A DNA stretch of 64,000 nt from assembly GCF_013167455.1 (NCBI RefSeq), contig NZ_CP038328.1; one strand, given 5' to 3'. Below, piece by piece: positions 25,301 through 62,378 of the stretch. The stretch is from Escherichia coli O157:H7 (lineage in GTDB: Bacteria; Pseudomonadota; Gammaproteobacteria; Enterobacterales; Enterobacteriaceae). A program made the translations under genes and the position numbers. Positions within the stretch are counted from its first letter, which is position 1, and each line of letters starts with the position of its first letter. Below the pieces are notes generated by a model, which searched no databases, was not told the DNA's origin, and saw only the letters and a program-made list of their open reading frames with translations.

Positions 25301-26857
25301 ATGGAATTCTTAATGGACCCCTCAATTTGGGCGGGGCTACTCACGCTTGTTGTTCTCGAAATTGTGCTGGGTATCGATAACCTGGTCTTCATCGCCATTC
25401 TTGCTGACAAACTGCCGCCAAAACAACGCGATAAAGCGCGTTTGCTGGGGTTATCACTGGCGCTGATTATGCGTCTGGGGCTGCTGTCGCTGATTTCATG
25501 GATGGTCACGCTGACCAAACCGCTATTTACCGTCATGGATTTCTCCTTCTCCGGACGCGACCTGATTATGTTGTTCGGGGGGATATTCTTGCTGTTCAAA
25601 GCAACAACCGAACTGCATGAACGGCTGGAAAACCGCGATCATGATTCCGGCCACGGTAAAGGCTACGCCAGTTTCTGGGTGGTCGTCACACAGATTGTCA
25701 TCCTTGACGCCGTCTTCTCGTTGGATGCGGTAATTACTGCAGTAGGGATGGTTAACCATCTGCCGGTGATGATGGCGGCGGTAGTGATTGCGATGGCGGT
25801 TATGTTGCTGGCATCCAAACCGCTGACGCGATTCGTTAACCAGCACCCCACGGTGGTGGTGCTCTGTCTGAGCTTCCTGTTAATGATTGGTCTGAGTCTG
25901 GTGGCAGAAGGTTTCGGTTTCCACATTCCGAAAGGTTACCTGTATGCCGCGATTGGCTTCTCGATCATCATCGAAGTGTTTAACCAGATTGCGCGTCGCA
26001 ACTTTATTCGTCACCAGTCGACTTTGCCGCTGCGAGCGCGTACTGCCGATGCCATCCTGCGTTTGATGGGCGGGAAACGTCAGGCCAATGTTCAGCACGA
26101 TGCCGATAACCCGATGCCGATGCCGATCCCGGAAGGTGCATTTGCCGAAGAAGAACGTTACATGATTAACGGCGTACTGACGCTGGCGTCGCGTTCTCTG
26201 CGCGGGATCATGACGCCGCGCGGTGAAATAAGCTGGGTTGACGCTAATCTCGGGGTCGATGAAATCCGCGAGCAGCTGCTCTCCTCACCGCACAGCCTGT
26301 TCCCGGTATGTCGCGGTGAACTGGATGAAATCATCGGAATCGTACGTGCTAAAGAACTGCTGGTGGCGCTGGAAGAGGGCGTTGATGTGGCGGCGATTGC
26401 TTCGGCGTCTCCGGCGATTATCGTCCCTGAAACCCTCGATCCGATCAACCTGCTGGGCGTGCTGCGTCGTGCTCGCGGGAGCTTTGTTATCGTGACCAAC
26501 GAGTTTGGTGTGGTACAAGGCTTGGTCACGCCGCTGGATGTGCTGGAAGCCATTGCGGGTGAATTCCCGGACGCTGACGAAACGCCGGAAATCATTACTG
26601 ATGGTGACGGCTGGCTGGTAAAAGGCGGTACAGATTTGCATGCCTTGCAGCAGGCGCTTGATGTTGAGCACCTTGCCGATGACGATGATATCGCGACGGT
26701 CGCGGGCCTCGTGATCTCGGCAAATGGTCACATTCCCCGTGTGGGCGATGTGATTGATGTAGGGCCACTGCATATCACCATCATTGAAGCCAATGATTAT
26801 CGTGTTGATCTGGTTCGCATTGTTAAAGAGCAACCGGCGCACGATGAAGATGAGTAA
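25301..26857 (+). CDS. yoaE: Inner-membrane protein with TerC-like N-terminus, CBS pair and CorC/HlyC C-terminal domain
   Basis: 518 aa; membrane N-terminal half followed by a soluble CBS/CorC-like half. Confidence 0.9.
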
Positions 26858-26860
26858 GCG

Positions 26861-28459
26861 TTAACGTAACGGCATAATGGGCGTGATATGTCCATTATGC
26901 CGGGCGGGCGGCGGTTGGCTGCCCGCCAGCCATTTGGGAAAATCACGTAGCGGCATCGGCTGTGCGTACAAATACCCTTGCAAAATATGCACGCCATGAC
27001 GGCGCAAATACTTCGCCTGTTCTTGCGTTTCCACGCCCTCCGCCACCAGTTCAATATTCAGTCTTTGCCCCAGCGCGATGATGATATCGGTCACCGTCGA
27101 GTTAACCGCGTCAGAACCTATAGCTGCGGTAAATGACTTATCAATTTTCAGCACGTCAGGACGTAATGTTTCAAGCCAGGAAAATGAACTGTTGCCGGTG
27201 CCGAAGTCATCAATCGCCAGTTTGACGTTTTTACGATGTAGCTCGCGGGCAATCCGATAATCAACATCCAGTAAGGCATCGCGTTCGGTGATTTCGAGGA
27301 TCAGTTGCTGAATCGGGTGAGCGCTAAACCAGTACTGATTGAGATCTTTTATCAGCACACCACGGCGAAAATGGCTGGGTGCGACGTTAATGCCAACATG
27401 AAACTGACTACTCATCGGGAAAACATGGCGCTGACGAATGGTTTCTGCCATCACATAGCGGGTCAGTGGCACAATTAAATGATGTTCTTCCGCGATAGGA
27501 ATAAACACATCCGGTGAAATCCAGCCCTGACGCGGATTGTTCCAGCGCAGCAAAATCTCTACACCAATACATTGCTGGCTGCGCGCATTAAGCAAAGGCT
27601 GACAGAACAATTCGAACTCATGTTGCGCCAGGCCCAGATTGATTTCGCGGGAAAAGCTCATTCGGTAAGCGGTCGCCAGCCAGGCGATGTAGCCCACCAG
27701 TAAACTTAGCAGTACCGCCAGCGGTAATTGTGTTGGAAGATAGTGCCATGCCAGCGCCGGAGCCCCCGGACCATTAACGTTAATGGTAAAAGAAAAGCGT
27801 TGCGAAGAAACCTGATAGTTTTCATTGTCTTCAGGTTGTGGAAGGGAATCTACCAGCCCATTACCATAGAGCAAATGCCGTTTGTCCACCGTCAGGCTGG
27901 CGCTACTGATTTGCGGCAGTTGTGGCTCAAGCAGCATTGCCGTCAGTAAGTCGATGTTAATCATCTCCATGACCCCAGCATTGCTACTGCTCGCTGCAGG
28001 CGTCCATTGAATCAAAACCGGACTGCCTTTAATCAGGACACGGTCGGTCGTCAGGCGTAAAAGTGGTTGCGGTGCAGGAAGTTCAGCCAGAATGTCCACG
28101 ACGGGCACATTGCGATAACCAAAAATGCTGGAGCAATAAAGTGTGCCGTCTTGCACCAGGCCAATGGATCGCACAGTTTGGAGTTTTGCCGCCTGTTTAC
28201 GTAATGGCAAATGGGCGACAGAGCAGGGCAGACCAATCAGCGGAAGCAAGACTTCGCTACCTGCCTGTAGGGGAAGCAGTACTTTATCTAATTCCTCTAC
28301 AGCGTGATTGGCGAATTGTACTACCCGTTGTTGATTTAAGTTACGCTGTGAAATAAATCGCACGCTCAGGGTCGAAGCGAGCGTAACGAGTGCGCAAATC
28401 GTACAAACAATCATTCGATTACGGCGATAGGTTTTAATGATCCGTTGTGCTTTTTGCAT
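26861..28459 (-). CDS. pdeD: CSS-domain c-di-GMP phosphodiesterase PdeD (YoaD)
   Basis: Track ORF trimmed to ATG 28459 (MQKAQRIIKTYRRN..., 532 aa); periplasmic CSS motif (LYCSSIFGYRN), TM2, EAL domain (FELFCQP..., EILLRW). Confidence 0.85.
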   Translation of the reverse strand: MQKAQRIIKTYRRNRMIVCTICALVTLASTLSVRFISQRNLNQQRVVQFANHAVEELDKVLLPLQAGSEVLLPLIGLPCSVAHLPLRKQAAKLQTVRSIGLVQDGTLYCSSIFGYRNVPVVDILAELPAPQPLLRLTTDRVLIKGSPVLIQWTPAASSSNAGVMEMINIDLLTAMLLEPQLPQISSASLTVDKRHLLYGNGLVDSLPQPEDNENYQVSSQRFSFTINVNGPGAPALAWHYLPTQLPLAVLLSLLVGYIAWLATAYRMSFSREINLGLAQHEFELFCQPLLNARSQQCIGVEILLRWNNPRQGWISPDVFIPIAEEHHLIVPLTRYVMAETIRQRHVFPMSSQFHVGINVAPSHFRRGVLIKDLNQYWFSAHPIQQLILEITERDALLDVDYRIARELHRKNVKLAIDDFGTGNSSFSWLETLRPDVLKIDKSFTAAIGSDAVNSTVTDIIIALGQRLNIELVAEGVETQEQAKYLRRHGVHILQGYLYAQPMPLRDFPKWLAGSQPPPARHNGHITPIMPLR

Positions 28460-28589
28460 GCGGGCCACTCTGTAAGCGTATGGCGACAAACGCCTGACGC
28501 AACAGTGGAAGTGTAGTGGGGAATATTACAGCAGACGAGAAAGCGGGGATAAATTCGCCCATCCGTTGCAGATGGGCGAGTAAGAAGTA

Positions 28590-37139: not shown

Positions 37140-38825
37140 TTGAAGAAGGTTTGGCTTAACCGTTATCCCGCGGACGTTCCGACGGAGATCAACCCTGACC
37201 GTTATCAATCTCTGGTAGATATGTTTGAGCAGTCGGTCGCGCGCTACGCCGATCAGCCTGCGTTTGTGAATATGGGGGAGGTGATGACCTTCCGCAAGCT
37301 GGAAGAACGCAGTCGCGCGTTTGCCGCTTATTTGCAACAAGGGTTGGGGCTGAAGAAAGGCGATCGCGTTGCGTTGATGATGCCTAATTTATTGCAATAT
37401 CCGGTGGCGCTGTTTGGCATTTTGCGTGCCGGGATGATCGTCGTAAACGTTAACCCGTTGTATACCCCGCGTGAGCTTGAGCATCAGCTTAACGATAGCG
37501 GCGCATCGGCGATTGTCATTGTGTCCAACTTTGCTCACACGCTGGAAAAAGTGGTCGATAAAACCGCAGTTCAGCACGTTATCCTGACCCGTATGGGCGA
37601 TCAGCTTTCCACAGCGAAAGGCACACTGGTTAACTTCGTTGTTAAATACATCAAACGTCTGGTGCCGAAATATCATCTGCCAGATGCCATTTCATTTCGT
37701 AGCGCCCTGCACAACGGCTACCGTATGCAGTATGTCAAACCTGAACTGGTGCCAGAAGATTTAGCCTTCCTGCAATACACTGGCGGCACCACAGGTGTGG
37801 CGAAAGGCGCGATGCTGACTCACCGCAATATGCTGGCGAACCTGGAACAAGTTAACGCTACGTATGGGCCTCTGCTGCATCCGGGCAAAGAGCTGGTGGT
37901 GACGGCGCTGCCGCTGTATCACATTTTTGCACTGACCATTAACTGCCTGCTGTTTATCGAACTGGGTGGGCAGAACCTGCTTATCACTAACCCGCGGGAT
38001 ATTCCGGGGCTGGTCAAAGAGCTGGCGAAATATCCGTTTACCGCTATCACCGGCGTAAACACCTTGTTCAACGCGTTGCTGAACAATAAAGAGTTTCAAC
38101 AACTGGATTTCTCCAGTCTGCACCTTTCTGCAGGCGGTGGGATGCCTGTTCAGCAAGTGGTGGCAGAACGCTGGGTGAAACTGACCGGACAGTATCTGCT
38201 GGAAGGTTATGGCCTGACCGAATGTGCGCCGCTGGTCAGCGTGAACCCCTATGATATTGATTATCATAGCGGTAGCATTGGTTTGCCGGTGCCGTCGACG
38301 GAAGCCAAACTGGTGGATGACGACGATAATGAAGTATCGCCAGGTCAGCCAGGTGAACTTTGCGTCAGAGGTCCACAGGTGATGCTGGGCTATTGGCAGC
38401 GTCCGGATGCTACCGATGAAATCATCAAAAACGGCTGGTTACACACTGGCGACATCGCGGTAATGGATGAAGAAGGATTCCTGCGCATTGTCGATCGTAA
38501 AAAAGACATGATTTTGGTTTCCGGTTTTAACGTCTATCCCAACGAGATTGAAGATGTCGTCATGCAGCATCCTGGCGTACAGGAAGTCGCGGCTGTTGGT
38601 GTACCTTCCGGCTCCAGTGGTGAAGCGGTGAAAATCTTCGTAGTGAAAAAAGATCCATCGCTTACCGAAGAGTCACTGGTGACCTTTTGCCGCCGTCAGC
38701 TCACGGGCTACAAAGTACCGAAGCTGGTGGAGTTTCGTGATGAGTTACCGAAATCTAACGTCGGAAAAATTTTGCGACGAGAATTACGTGACGAAGCGCG
38801 CGGCAAAGTGGACAATAAAGCCTGA
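37140..38825 (+). CDS. fadD: Long-chain fatty acyl-CoA synthetase FadD (TTG start)
   Basis: AMP-binding motif [12 protein letters not shown]; start at TTG 37140 preceded by GAGGTG Shine-Dalgarno gives the recalled 561 aa ([14 protein letters not shown]...); track ATG 37074 is an over-extension. Confidence 0.9.
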
Positions 38826-38842
38826 GCGTTAAGTCAGTCGTC

Positions 38843-38870
38843 AGACGCCGGTTAATCCGGCGTTTTTTTT
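38843..38870 (+). terminator. Intrinsic terminator after fadD
   Basis: ACGCCGG-TTAA-TCCGGCGT hairpin followed by TTTTTTTT. Confidence 0.75.
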
Positions 38871-38894: not shown

Positions 38895-40022
38895 TTGAAT
38901 TACCAAATGATTACCACGGACGATGCGCTGGCTTCTTTGTGTGAAGCCGTCCGTGCCTTTCCGGCGATAGCCCTGGATACTGAATTTGTTCGTACGCGCA
39001 CTTATTACCCGCAGCTGGGGTTGATTCAACTTTTCGATGGCGAGCATCTGGCGCTAATTGATCCTCTCGGGATCACCGACTGGTCACCGCTGAAAGCGAT
39101 CCTGCGCGATCCGTCCATCACAAAATTTCTCCATGCAGGCAGTGAAGATCTGGAAGTGTTCCTCAATGTCTTTGGCGAATTACCACAACCCCTGATTGAC
39201 ACGCAAATCCTTGCTGCCTTCTGCGGACGCCCGATGTCATGGGGTTTCGCTTCCATGGTGGAAGAGTATTCCGGCGTTACGCTGGACAAGAGTGAATCGC
39301 GCACCGACTGGCTGGCCAGACCGCTGACCGAACGTCAGTGTGAATATGCAGCGGCGGATGTCTGGTATCTGTTACCGATCACCGCCAAGCTTATGGTAGA
39401 AACGGAGGCCTCCGGCTGGCTACCAGCGGCGCTGGATGAATGTCGCCTGATGCAAATGCGTCGTCAGGAAGTCGTTGCGCCGGAAGATGCCTGGCGTGAT
39501 ATCACCAATGCCTGGCAATTACGCACACGCCAACTGGCCTGTCTGCAACTGTTAGCCGACTGGCGACTGCGCAAGGCGCGAGAGCGCGATCTGGCGGTGA
39601 ACTTTGTCGTGCGTGAAGAGCATTTGTGGTCGGTAGCGCGTTATATGCCGGGAAGTTTAGGCGAACTGGACAGCCTGGGTTTATCCGGTAGCGAAATCCG
39701 CTTTCACGGTAAAACGCTGCTGGCGCTGGTGGAAAAAGCGCAGACATTGCCGGAAGAGGCCTTACCGCAGCCGATGCTTAACCTGATGGACATGCCGGGT
39801 TATCGTAAAGCGTTTAAAGCGATTAAGTCGCTGATTACTGACGTGAGCGAAACGCACAAGATCAGCGCCGAATTGCTGGCATCGCGTCGGCAAATCAACC
39901 AACTGCTGAACTGGCACTGGAAACTGAAACCGCAGAACAATTTGCCGGAGCTGATTTCCGGCTGGCGTGGTGAGCTGATGGCGGAAGCATTACACAATTT
40001 ATTGCAGGAATATCCGCAGTAA
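38895..40022 (+). CDS. rnd: Ribonuclease D
   Basis: 375 aa; DEDD exonuclease domain (IALDTEF) plus HRDC domains. Confidence 0.9.
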   Translation: MNYQMITTDDALASLCEAVRAFPAIALDTEFVRTRTYYPQLGLIQLFDGEHLALIDPLGITDWSPLKAILRDPSITKFLHAGSEDLEVFLNVFGELPQPLIDTQILAAFCGRPMSWGFASMVEEYSGVTLDKSESRTDWLARPLTERQCEYAAADVWYLLPITAKLMVETEASGWLPAALDECRLMQMRRQEVVAPEDAWRDITNAWQLRTRQLACLQLLADWRLRKARERDLAVNFVVREEHLWSVARYMPGSLGELDSLGLSGSEIRFHGKTLLALVEKAQTLPEEALPQPMLNLMDMPGYRKAFKAIKSLITDVSETHKISAELLASRRQINQLLNWHWKLKPQNNLPELISGWRGELMAEALHNLLQEYPQ

Positions 40023-40028
40023 AATTTT

Positions 40029-40071
40029 CCGAAGCCGGACTGGGCGCGCTCAGCGCCACATCCGGCTTCGG
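40029..40071. terminator. Extended perfect hairpin between convergent rnd and yeaX (bidirectional terminator candidate)
   Basis: 11-bp perfect inverted repeat CCGAAGCCGGA...TCCGGCTTCGG enclosing an inner GGCGC/GCGCC palindrome; no strong T-tract on either side. Confidence 0.5.
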
Positions 40072-40075
40072 CAAA

Positions 40076-41041
40076 CTACAAATCCAACACCAGGCGTTTA
40101 CCCTTCGCACGCGAACAACAGATCAACATACTTTGCTGGCTGGCACGCTCTTCATCGCTAAAATACTGATCCCGATGGTCAGCTTCACCTTCCAGTATTG
40201 CCGTTTCGCAGGTTCCGCATACCCCTTCACGACATAAACATTCCACTTTCGCGGCTTTATTATTTTCAATAACCTGCAAAATAGTCATCTCTTCCGGCAC
40301 CACAAACTCTTTTCCGGAACGGGCAAGCACCAGGGTAAATGCATCGCCGGTTTTGTCTTCGATAGCAAATTGCTCAAAGTGCAGCGTATCGGCAGCGATG
40401 TCCAGACGCGCAGCTTCACTTCTTACCGCTTCAATTAGCGCCTCGGGGCCACAGGTATAAACGTGTGTGCCAGGTTCGATATCCGCCAATAATCGCGCTA
40501 ATTCCAGTCGTGTTCCGGTCGATGATTGATGCAAATGGACTTTCTCAGCCTGCGGATGCTGGACTAGCTCATCACGAAATGCGCAACTTTCTGGATTTCG
40601 CGAGCAGTAATGTAGCTGCCAGTCGACGTCGCTGTGTTGCAACTCTGCCATGTGCGACAGGAAAGGGGTGATACCAATACCGCCCGCGATAAACAGATGC
40701 TTTCTGGCTGAGGGAATTAGCGCAAACAGGTTATTAGGCGTTGAGATCGTTAACCGATCGCCCACTTTTACCTGCTGATGCAAAAAGCGGGAACCGCCGC
40801 GCGAGTTTTCTTCCAGTCGAACGGCAATCTGATAACTAGAGGTGTTATGCGGTGAACTCAGTAGTGAATACGCATTACTGTACTGGTTATCACCATCGCT
40901 CATCTGCACTATGATGTGACTTCCTCCGGTGAACGCAGGCAGCGGTTTGCCATCGGTTGCCACCGGCGTGAAGCGTTTCACCTGTTCGGTAAGCGGTTCC
41001 ACCTGACTCACCTGTACTTCAAACATTTGATAGTCTGACAT
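40076..41041 (-). CDS. yeaX: Carnitine monooxygenase reductase subunit (ferredoxin-NAD(P) reductase with C-terminal 2Fe-2S)
   Basis: 321 aa; C-terminal plant-type ferredoxin cysteines (CREGVCGTCE). Confidence 0.9.
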   Translation of the reverse strand: MSDYQMFEVQVSQVEPLTEQVKRFTPVATDGKPLPAFTGGSHIIVQMSDGDNQYSNAYSLLSSPHNTSSYQIAVRLEENSRGGSRFLHQQVKVGDRLTISTPNNLFALIPSARKHLFIAGGIGITPFLSHMAELQHSDVDWQLHYCSRNPESCAFRDELVQHPQAEKVHLHQSSTGTRLELARLLADIEPGTHVYTCGPEALIEAVRSEAARLDIAADTLHFEQFAIEDKTGDAFTLVLARSGKEFVVPEEMTILQVIENNKAAKVECLCREGVCGTCETAILEGEADHRDQYFSDEERASQQSMLICCSRAKGKRLVLDL

Positions 41042-58167: not shown

Positions 58168-58267
58168 CTACATTTGCCAACTGTATGCTACGCCTGTGTT
58201 GCCATTTCTCTGGCCCACGGTTCGCTGTCGTTGTAGGCCCGGTAGCATGTGTACCGGGCCAGGGTTG

Positions 58268-62328: not shown

Positions 62329-62337
62329 TGTTGATAC

Positions 62338-62362
62338 GTGCCGGATGCATCGCACCCGGCAC
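62338..62362. repeat. REP-like palindromic element between yeaE and yeaD
   Basis: GTGCCGG-ATGCATCGCAC-CCGGCAC inverted repeat resembling the GCCGGATG core of REP elements. Confidence 0.35.
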
Positions 62363-62378
62363 ACAACATTGACGCAAA

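What the first reader, a model, noticed from the sequence alone, without database searches (positions are those of the whole stretch)
40023..40075. Unusually long perfect palindrome between rnd and yeaX
An 11-bp perfect inverted repeat with a nested GC palindrome fills the 53-bp gap between two convergent genes. It has no flanking U-tract, so it may be a processing or protective stem-loop rather than a classical terminator.
Basis: seen in the sequence. Interest (0 to 1): 0.2.

Follow-up and report, generated by a model that had tools for sequence, protein, structure and literature searches.

The report
REP-derived hairpin ending rnd and yeaX
The palindrome between the facing E. coli genes rnd and yeaX is a real, very stable hairpin: a decayed copy of the common bacterial REP repeat that marks where both messages end, and it is ordinary and already catalogued.

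Summary
The arms CCGAAGCCGGA (40029-40039) and TCCGGCTTCGG (40061-40071) are perfectly complementary and enclose a GGCGC/GCGCC stem. They fill the 53-bp gap between rnd and yeaX of an O157-like E. coli. The fold is -36 to -39 kcal/mol (z -5 to -7).

It is not a new object. In K-12 the same hairpin is entry #155 of a published table of 306 bidirectional terminators. Transcript 3' ends lie 4 nt (yeaX strand) and 6 nt (rnd strand) past the stem, in log and stationary phase.

A covariance model built only from annotated K-12 REPs elsewhere puts this locus top in the window (20.3 bits, E~0.003). The orthologue in a sister Escherichia lineage is near-canonical (GTAA-GCCGGACAAGGCG...CGCCGCATCCGGC, 37.4 bits). 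So it is a REP relic that lost the GTAG tag and gained a 5-bp stem extension. The exact sequence is single-copy.

On the rnd strand there is no U-tract. The next ~240 nt are C-rich and G-poor, and a bicyclomycin-sensitive Rho region peaks ~140 nt downstream. Most likely the hairpin shields 3' ends from exonucleases and pauses polymerase, rather than acting as a classical terminator. Interest is low.

The parts
38895..40022 (+). rnd (RNase D) coding sequence, TTG start, TAA stop at 40020-40022
   Evidence: ORF list; RefSeq annotation of identical DNA
40076..41041 (-). yeaX (carnitine monooxygenase reductase subunit) coding sequence, convergent with rnd
40021..40028 (.). AAAATTTT tract. It lies upstream of the stem for rnd RNA. 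It reads AAAAUUUU downstream of the stem for yeaX RNA. K-12 has AAAATCTT here.
40029..40039 (.). left arm CCGAAGCCGGA. The first 5 nt (CCGAA) are the E. coli-specific stem extension that occupies the place of the REP GTAG tag.
40043..40057 (.). inner REP-like stem GGCGC/GCGCC with the 5-nt loop GCTCA (40048-40052). It is separated from the outer stem by 3-nt mismatched segments at 40040-42 and 40058-60.
40061..40071 (.). right arm TCCGGCTTCGG
40030..40067 (+). match to a covariance model of annotated K-12 REPs, in REP orientation with the 5' tag side towards rnd: 20.3 bits, E~0.003, the top hit in the window
40025..40025 (-). position equivalent to the K-12 yeaX-strand transcript 3' end (NC_000913.3 1886861), 4 nt past the stem
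   Evidence: coordinate mapping
40077..40077 (+). position equivalent to the K-12 rnd-strand transcript 3' end (1886809), 6 nt past the stem
40072..40310 (+). C-rich, G-poor stretch of the rnd read-through RNA (C/G 1.5-3.3), antisense to the yeaX 3' end. The K-12 Rho-region peak 1886672 maps to window 40214.

Best explanation
The palindrome is a solitary, decayed y-type REP (repetitive extragenic palindrome) fixed at the rnd/yeaX junction of Escherichia. In E. coli proper its 5' GTAG-like tag was replaced by CGAA. That change lengthens the stem to 11 perfect base pairs. Transcribed from either strand, it folds into a hairpin of about -35 kcal/mol that sets the steady-state 3' end of both mRNAs a few nucleotides past the stem.

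For rnd the likely sequence of events is as follows. RNA polymerase often passes the hairpin, because no U-tract follows it. Rho then loads on the C-rich untranslated RNA just downstream and terminates within about 150-250 nt. 3'-to-5' exonucleases trim back to the hairpin, which protects the message. For the weakly expressed yeaX, the same hairpin plus a short offset U run does the equivalent job, possibly with some intrinsic termination.

Shown: the structure, REP relatedness, conservation, and published 3' ends and Rho sensitivity in K-12. Inferred: the order of events, exonuclease trimming, and transfer from K-12 to this O157-like strain.
For: Structure. The hairpin is present in 5,423 of 5,426 complete E. 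coli genomes, as three main alleles that all fold strongly: the exact 43-nt form in 2,358, forms with 1-2 mismatches in 1,722, and a 36-nt form with a 7-nt deletion in 1,341. It is kept downstream of rnd in B2 strains that have lost yeaVWX.

REP relatedness: model R1 was built only from 7 annotated K-12 REPs at other loci. It ranks this locus first in the window at 20.3 bits. It scores the orthologue in CP089930.1 at 37.4 bits (E~1e-7) and the one in Escherichia sp. E1V33 at 25.5 bits. The alignment shows GTAA-GCCGGACAAGGCG...CGCCGCATCCGGC against the canonical GTAG-GCCGGATAAGGCG...CGCCGCATCCGGC. In 80 Enterobacteriaceae rnd loci, 25 of 28 model hits lie just 3' of rnd, so the site is a REP hot spot.

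3' ends: entry #155 of the bidirectional-terminator table reused in Harris et al. 2026 Table S16 gives overlap 1886809-1886861, detected in log and stationary phase, genes yeaX:rnd:fadD.

Rho: Adams et al. 2021 supplementary file 2 lists position 1886672 (-) with -BCM coverage 56 upstream and 22 downstream, +BCM coverage 45 and 89, Rho score 5.03, p 9e-8. The rut-like C/G ratio of 1.5-3.3 spans 40072-40310. The general model comes from Dar & Sorek 2018 and from REP as a partly Rho-dependent terminator plus stabiliser in Harris et al. 2026.
Against: The curated Term-seq list of Adams et al. has no 3' end in 1886500-1887099 in any of three conditions, and the TERMITe supplements do not mention the locus. 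Direct 3'-end support therefore rests on one dataset, seen second-hand. The Rho score uses 800-nt windows and modest read counts. The authors of the bidirectional-terminator class state that such sites do not depend on Rho. There is no compensatory covariation: the core pairs never vary and the outer pairs differ between lineages only with register shifts. All transcript data are from K-12, not this strain, which differs by one base in the A/T tract. Exonuclease trimming was not tested.
Confidence: 0.6

Rival explanations
1. Collision-type overlapping bidirectional terminator. The hairpin only pauses RNA polymerases arriving from either gene. Head-on collision, followed by a push from a trailing polymerase, releases the transcripts without Rho or a U-tract.
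For: [quoted passage not shown] The model and its hairpin-pausing role are described in the Liu-lab preprint. The ends on the two strands flank one shared hairpin.
Against: yeaX is very weakly expressed compared with rnd: about 65 against about 1,883 in the first numeric column of the expression table of Harris et al.. Head-on encounters should therefore be rare. Bicyclomycin-sensitive read-through exists downstream on the rnd strand. The hairpin is retained in B2 strains where the convergent partner yeaX is deleted.
Confidence: 0.2
2. Weak classical intrinsic terminator, at least for yeaX: the hairpin plus the AAAAUUUU run releases polymerase directly.
For: A GC-rich hairpin is followed on the yeaX strand by four U starting 5 nt after the stem. 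In about a third of 80 other Enterobacteriaceae species, rnd is followed by a canonical A-tract/hairpin/U-tract terminator at the same place.
Against: The consensus scan does not call it. The reported yeaX-strand 3' end lies 4 nt after the stem, before the U run. The rnd strand has no U-tract at all.
Confidence: 0.1
3. Neutral REP fossil: a leftover of a mobile repeat that persists because it is harmless. Transcript ends map there only because any stable hairpin blocks exonucleases.
For: The GTAG tag is lost. Allelic variation is free, including a 7-nt deletion in 25% of genomes, arm SNPs, and a degraded inner stem in E. albertii. There is no covariation. Different genera carry different, unrelated elements at this spot.
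Against: Every allele and lineage keeps a strong hairpin of -18 to -37 kcal/mol. It is present in 5,423 of 5,426 genomes. Nearly every genus has some stable hairpin within about 100 nt of the rnd stop. This rival concerns selection and does not conflict with the molecular behaviour proposed above.
Confidence: 0.1

Closest known systems
E. coli y-type REP / palindromic unit (group 2 REP, substrate of TnpA_REP/RAYT)
   Same: Extragenic location in a 3' UTR between convergent genes. GCCGGA...TCCGGC outer stem, mismatched mid-stem segment, GGCG/CGCC inner stem and a 4-5 nt loop. 23 of 30 core positions match REP16, and 28 of 30 in the sister-lineage orthologue. The REP model matches significantly.
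   Different: CGAA replaces the 5' GTAG tag, which tolerates no mutation for TnpA_REP activity. Position T11 is C, and the bulge bases differ. Five extra base pairs (CCGAA/TTCGG) make the stem longer and far more stable than typical REPs. It is solitary, single-copy as an exact sequence, and absent from the 355 annotated K-12 REPs.
Overlapping bidirectional terminators between convergent genes (SEnd-seq class, 306 in E. coli)
   Same: It is listed as one of them (#155), with a shared hairpin and ends on both strands.
   Different: It is the most stable hairpin among the roughly 100 rows I read: -35.5 kcal/mol against -7.9 to -32.6. The proposed Rho independence conflicts with the bicyclomycin signal downstream.
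Protective 3' stem-loops of Rho-dependent transcripts (Dar & Sorek 2018; Peters et al. REP association)
   Same: A stable hairpin without a U-tract, a C>G region immediately downstream, and bicyclomycin-sensitive read-through.
   Different: Exonuclease dependence is not shown for this locus, and the locus was not retrievable from that study's tables.
Rho-independent (intrinsic) terminator
   Same: A GC-rich stem-loop at the gene end.
   Different: It lacks the 7-8 nt U-rich tract directly after the stem on the rnd strand, and has only an offset UUUU on the yeaX strand.

Membership tests
E. coli REP (y-type palindromic unit) | Extragenic location | tested here: met
   It lies wholly in the 53-bp gap 40023-40075.
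E. coli REP (y-type palindromic unit) | Imperfect palindrome with a mismatched bulge in mid-stem | tested here: met
   The outer and inner stems are separated by unpaired 40040-42 and 40058-60. The model alignment places them at the REP bulge.
E. coli REP (y-type palindromic unit) | Conserved stem sequence shared with other REPs | tested here: met
   Model R1, built from 7 annotated REPs elsewhere, gives the top hit in the window at 20.3 bits, E~0.003 (rough calibration). The orthologue scores 37.4 bits. T11 is C here.
E. coli REP (y-type palindromic unit) | Conserved 5' GTAG tetranucleotide abutting the stem | tested here: not met
   The window has CGAA at 40030-40033. Sister lineages have GTAA. 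GTAG tolerates no substitution for TnpA_REP. Some annotated solitary REPs also lack it: REP15 has GAAA and REP34 has GTAC.
E. coli REP (y-type palindromic unit) | Many dispersed copies in the genome | tested here: inconclusive
   The exact palindrome is single-copy. The 'second place' per genome is the palindrome hitting its own opposite strand. Family-level similarity is shown only through the model.
E. coli REP (y-type palindromic unit) | Inclusion in the curated list of 355 K-12 REP elements | tested here: not met
   The REP columns are empty for entry #155, while neighbours #151, #152 and #159 carry REP132, REP133 and REP136. The RefSeq copy available here shows no REP features at all, so it is uninformative.
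E. coli REP (y-type palindromic unit) | Binding and cleavage by TnpA_REP | not testable with these tools
   This needs an in vitro cleavage assay.
Intrinsic terminator | GC-rich hairpin | tested here: met
Intrinsic terminator | U-rich tract of about 7-8 nt directly after the stem | tested here: not met
   The rnd strand has CAAACUAC. The yeaX strand has AAAAUUUU. The scan finds no terminator-like site at the hairpin.
Overlapping bidirectional terminator (SEnd-seq class) | 3' ends of convergent transcripts flanking one hairpin so that the transcripts overlap | tested here: met
   Published table entry #155: overlap 1886809-1886861, log and stationary phase. The data are from K-12 and were read second-hand.
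Overlapping bidirectional terminator (SEnd-seq class) | Independence from Rho | tested here: inconclusive
   It is claimed for the class, but a Rho region (score 5.03, p 9e-8) lies about 143 nt downstream on the rnd strand.
Rho-dependent terminator with protective stem-loop | Bicyclomycin-sensitive read-through and a C>G-rich RNA downstream of a U-less hairpin | tested here: met
   rnd strand only
Rho-dependent terminator with protective stem-loop | 3' tails trimmed by PNPase/RNase II back to the hairpin | not testable with these tools
   This needs RNA-seq of pnp and rnb mutants at this locus.

The most novel reading that the evidence does not exclude
A mobile REP copy was 'domesticated' at this junction. 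Loss of its GTAG tag and gain of five extra base pairs in E. coli proper turned it into an exceptionally strong two-way RNA-end element. Its stem starts only 6 nt after the rnd stop codon and 4 nt after the yeaX stop codon. Terminating ribosomes must therefore melt it, so the common alleles (43-nt, G.U variant, 36-nt perfect) could set different RNase D levels across E. coli phylogroups. REP within about 15 nt of a stop codon lowering expression through ribosome stalling is recalled from Liang, Rudd & Deutscher 2015, and I could not retrieve that paper here.
Probability: 0.1. Interest if true: 0.3.

Novelty: already known. Interest (0 to 1): 0.1.

Why it matters
It matters little beyond annotation. 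The locus illustrates three things. First, a REP copy can lose its transposase tag yet persist as the structure that ends two facing messages. Second, curated REP lists miss such relics. Third, U-less hairpins at gene ends should be read as RNA-end-protecting or Rho-associated elements, not as failed terminators. The three common alleles offer a natural test of how hairpin strength affects RNase D expression, but nothing here suggests a new mechanism.

Tried and rejected
Rfam at a permissive threshold found no family over the hairpin, only sroD upstream.

RefSeq annotation of MG1655 lists no REP here, but that copy also omits the known REP132. Its silence therefore means nothing.

The idea of a second genomic copy came from 'median 2 places per genome'. 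It was rejected, because the extra place is the palindrome aligning to its own opposite strand.

The covariation test found no pair with changes on both sides, and shuffles do as well. I therefore do not claim covariation support.

Term-seq look-ups gave little. The curated list of Adams et al. has no 3' end at the hairpin. The TERMITe supplements do not mention the locus. The supplements of Dar & Sorek and of the 3'-UTR-valve paper are not held. The original SEnd-seq paper is not held either. Attributing the table to it is therefore my inference.

I could not find the 1988-89 rnd sequencing papers.

A canonical-REP pattern search in the window found no classical y or z REP other than this locus.

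Full report
**What is in the sequence**

The window is from an O157:H7-like E. coli chromosome: a 701-nt stretch around the finding is 100% identical to many O157 genomes, and RefSeq annotates rnd and yeaX there. rnd runs 38895-40022 on the + strand with a TTG start. yeaX runs 40076-41041 on the - strand. The gap between them is the 53 bp at 40023-40075.

The arms CCGAAGCCGGA (40029-40039) and TCCGGCTTCGG (40061-40071) are perfect reverse complements. Inside them, GGCGC (40043-47) pairs with GCGCC (40053-57) around the loop GCTCA. Three unpaired bases on each side separate the inner stem from the outer stem.

As RNA, the 71-nt region folds at -35.8 kcal/mol on the rnd strand (z -6.8) and at -38.6 on the yeaX strand (z -5.3). 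No shuffle out of 200 folded as well.

It is less exceptional than the title suggests. Ten separate loci in this window carry perfect inverted repeats of at least 11 bp, against 0.59 expected by chance. This hairpin is the second most stable 60-nt fold in the window.

'No U-tract' holds for the rnd strand, where CAAACUAC follows the stem. On the yeaX strand the stem is followed by AAAAUUUU. The consensus terminator scan calls nothing at the hairpin.

**Conservation within E. coli**

The hairpin is found in 5,423 of 5,426 complete E. coli genomes:

| Allele | Genomes |
|---|---|
| Exact 43-nt sequence | 2,358 |
| One or two differences | 1,722 |
| 36-nt form lacking CGCCACA | 1,341 |

- An example of the one-or-two-difference class is strain W. 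A C-to-T change in its right arm gives G.U in the rnd RNA but A.C in the yeaX RNA.
- The 36-nt allele is a 14-16 bp perfect hairpin.
- B2 strains such as UPEC 536 have lost yeaVWX but keep the hairpin after rnd.

The 'second place per genome' in the BLAST output is the palindrome matching its own opposite strand. The exact sequence is therefore single-copy.

**Relation to REP**

On the rnd-sense strand the core reads GCCGGA-CTG-GGCGC...GCGCC-ACA-TCCGGC. The y-type REP of E. coli reads GTAG-GCCGGAT-AA-GGCG...CGCC-GC-ATCCGGC. The defining REP features are:
- the GTAG tag;
- an imperfect palindrome;
- a mid-stem bulge;
- conserved stem positions.

I built a covariance model from seven annotated K-12 REPs at other loci, using sequences from Table S16 of Harris et al. 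2026. With filters off, the best hit in the 64-kb window is 40030-40067 (+) at 20.3 bits, E~0.003. The calibration is rough. The same locus on the other strand comes second.

A scan of rnd loci from 80 Enterobacteriaceae species shows the same element downstream of rnd in other Escherichia lineages:

| Lineage | Sequence feature | Model score |
|---|---|---|
| CP089930.1 | GTAAGCCGGACAAGGCGCAACCAGCGCCGCATCCGGC; 28 of 30 core positions canonical | 37.4 bits, E~1e-7 |
| Escherichia sp. E1V33 | same element | 25.5 bits |
| E. albertii | GTAA, with a degraded inner stem | 16.8 bits |

E. coli proper has CGAA where these lineages have GTAA. That change completes the pairing with TTCGG and yields the 11-bp perfect arms.

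In Enterobacter, Kluyvera, Silvania and some Citrobacter, typical REP or BIME units with GTAG...CTAC follow rnd. Of the 28 model hits across 400 kb, 25 lie just 3' of rnd. In about a third of the 80 species, rnd is instead followed by an A-tract/hairpin/U-tract terminator. None of these species is an Escherichia.

I conclude that the element is a REP relic by descent. It fails the GTAG test and is absent from the curated K-12 list: the REP columns are empty for this entry, while neighbours carry REP132, REP133 and REP136. Some annotated solitary REPs are no more canonical. REP15 has GAAA, REP34 has GTAC, and REP198 is a perfect palindrome.

Covariation gives no support either way.

**Transcript evidence (all from K-12; K-12 coordinate = 1926886 minus window coordinate)**

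- Table S16 of Harris et al. re-uses a table of 306 bidirectional terminators from 'a previous sequence-based study'. The Liu-lab preprint names SEnd-seq, Ju et al. 2019, as the source of such terminators. The link between the two is my inference.
- Entry #155 of that table gives overlap 1886809-1886861, 53 nt, -35.5 kcal/mol, stem 19, loop 5. It is marked convergent, detected in log and stationary phase, and assigned to yeaX:rnd:fadD.
- These coordinates put the yeaX-strand end at window 40025, 4 nt past the stem and just before the U run. They put the rnd-strand end at window 40077, 6 nt past the stem.
- Among the roughly 100 rows I read, this is the most stable hairpin.
- The curated Term-seq ends of Adams et al. 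2021 include none between 1886500 and 1887099.
- Their bicyclomycin experiment lists a Rho termination region peaking at 1886672 (-), antisense to yeaX. Coverage is 56 upstream and 22 downstream without BCM, and 45 and 89 with BCM. The Rho score is 5.03, p 9e-8. That position is window 40214, about 143 nt past the stem.
- The rnd read-through RNA from 40072 to about 40310 has a C/G ratio of 1.5-3.3, the composition Rho prefers.

**Mechanism**

The pattern matches Dar & Sorek 2018. Rho-dependent transcripts end, at steady state, just after a stable U-less stem-loop that is followed by C>G sequence. Termination occurs downstream, and PNPase or RNase II trims back to the hairpin.

It also fits REP behaviour as a partly Rho-dependent terminator and mRNA stabiliser.

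I therefore favour a hairpin that defines and protects both 3' ends, with Rho finishing rnd transcription downstream (confidence 0.6).

The collision model for bidirectional terminators is the main rival. Three things weaken it: the roughly 30-fold lower expression of yeaX, the Rho signal, and retention of the hairpin where yeaX is deleted. A weak intrinsic contribution on the yeaX strand and a purely neutral fossil remain possible.

Because the stem begins 6 nt after the rnd stop codon and 4 nt after the yeaX stop codon, terminating ribosomes must open its base. An effect on translation is conceivable but untested.

**Verdict**

This is a real, strong, conserved hairpin. It is a REP-derived element that ends two convergent messages and is already present in a published terminator catalogue. 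The only small additions are its REP ancestry, which the K-12 REP list does not record, and its allelic series. Interest is low.

Noticed in passing
window 38800-38869 (+): An sroD sRNA (Rfam RF00370, 85.8 bits) lies at the fadD 3' end, just upstream of rnd. K-12 Term-seq 3' ends 1888018/1888020 map to window 38868/38866, 27-29 nt before the rnd TTG start.
   Followed up: partly
window ~39003 (+): A strong Term-seq 3' end internal to rnd (K-12 1887883), about 108 nt into the coding sequence, is listed by Adams et al. It may reflect premature termination or processing.
   Followed up: no
window 26870-26930: This is the most stable local fold of the whole window (-45.3 kcal/mol): two adjacent hairpins (CGGCATAATGG...CCATTATGCCG and GGCGGGC...GCCCGCC). 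They sit right after the stop of the + strand ORF 25301-26857 (yoaE-like) and inside the 3' coding end of the convergent ORF 26861-28489 (pdeD-like).
   Followed up: no
window 62330-62375: The hairpin GTGCCGGATGCATCGCACCCGGCAC between yeaE and yeaD corresponds to K-12 REP133 and to bidirectional-terminator entry #152 (-32.6 kcal/mol). It scores only 12 bits with the REP model, less than the unannotated rnd/yeaX element.
   Followed up: partly
window 58233-58260 (+): A REP-like unit with an intact GTAG (GTAGGCCCGGTA...ACCGGGCC) lies between the tandem genes yeaH and yeaG: 13.9 bits here and 16.7 bits at the K-12 equivalent.
   Followed up: no
L004 3040-3260 (UPEC 536) and L006: B2-type strains lack yeaV-yeaW-yeaX, and dmlA/dmlR are pseudogene fragments. 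The deletion starts about 25 nt past the hairpin, inside the yeaX 3' end.
   Followed up: partly
L054 3125-3150 (Escherichia sp. MOD1-EC7003): The rnd stop codon TAA is TAC. The reading frame therefore runs seven codons into the hairpin and ends at a TGA in the left half of the stem. The downstream gene is not yeaX.
   Followed up: no
L045 3160-3553 (Enterobacteriaceae MGYG-HGUT-00110): A tandem array of at least three identical REP pairs with a 121-nt period lies directly after rnd. This is an expanded BIME cluster at the site that holds a single relic in E. coli.
   Followed up: no
window 40025-40027 vs K-12: The O157 allele reads AAAATTTT where K-12 reads AAAATCTT. In O157 this adds three A-U pairs below the stem in the predicted rnd-strand fold.
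   Followed up: partly
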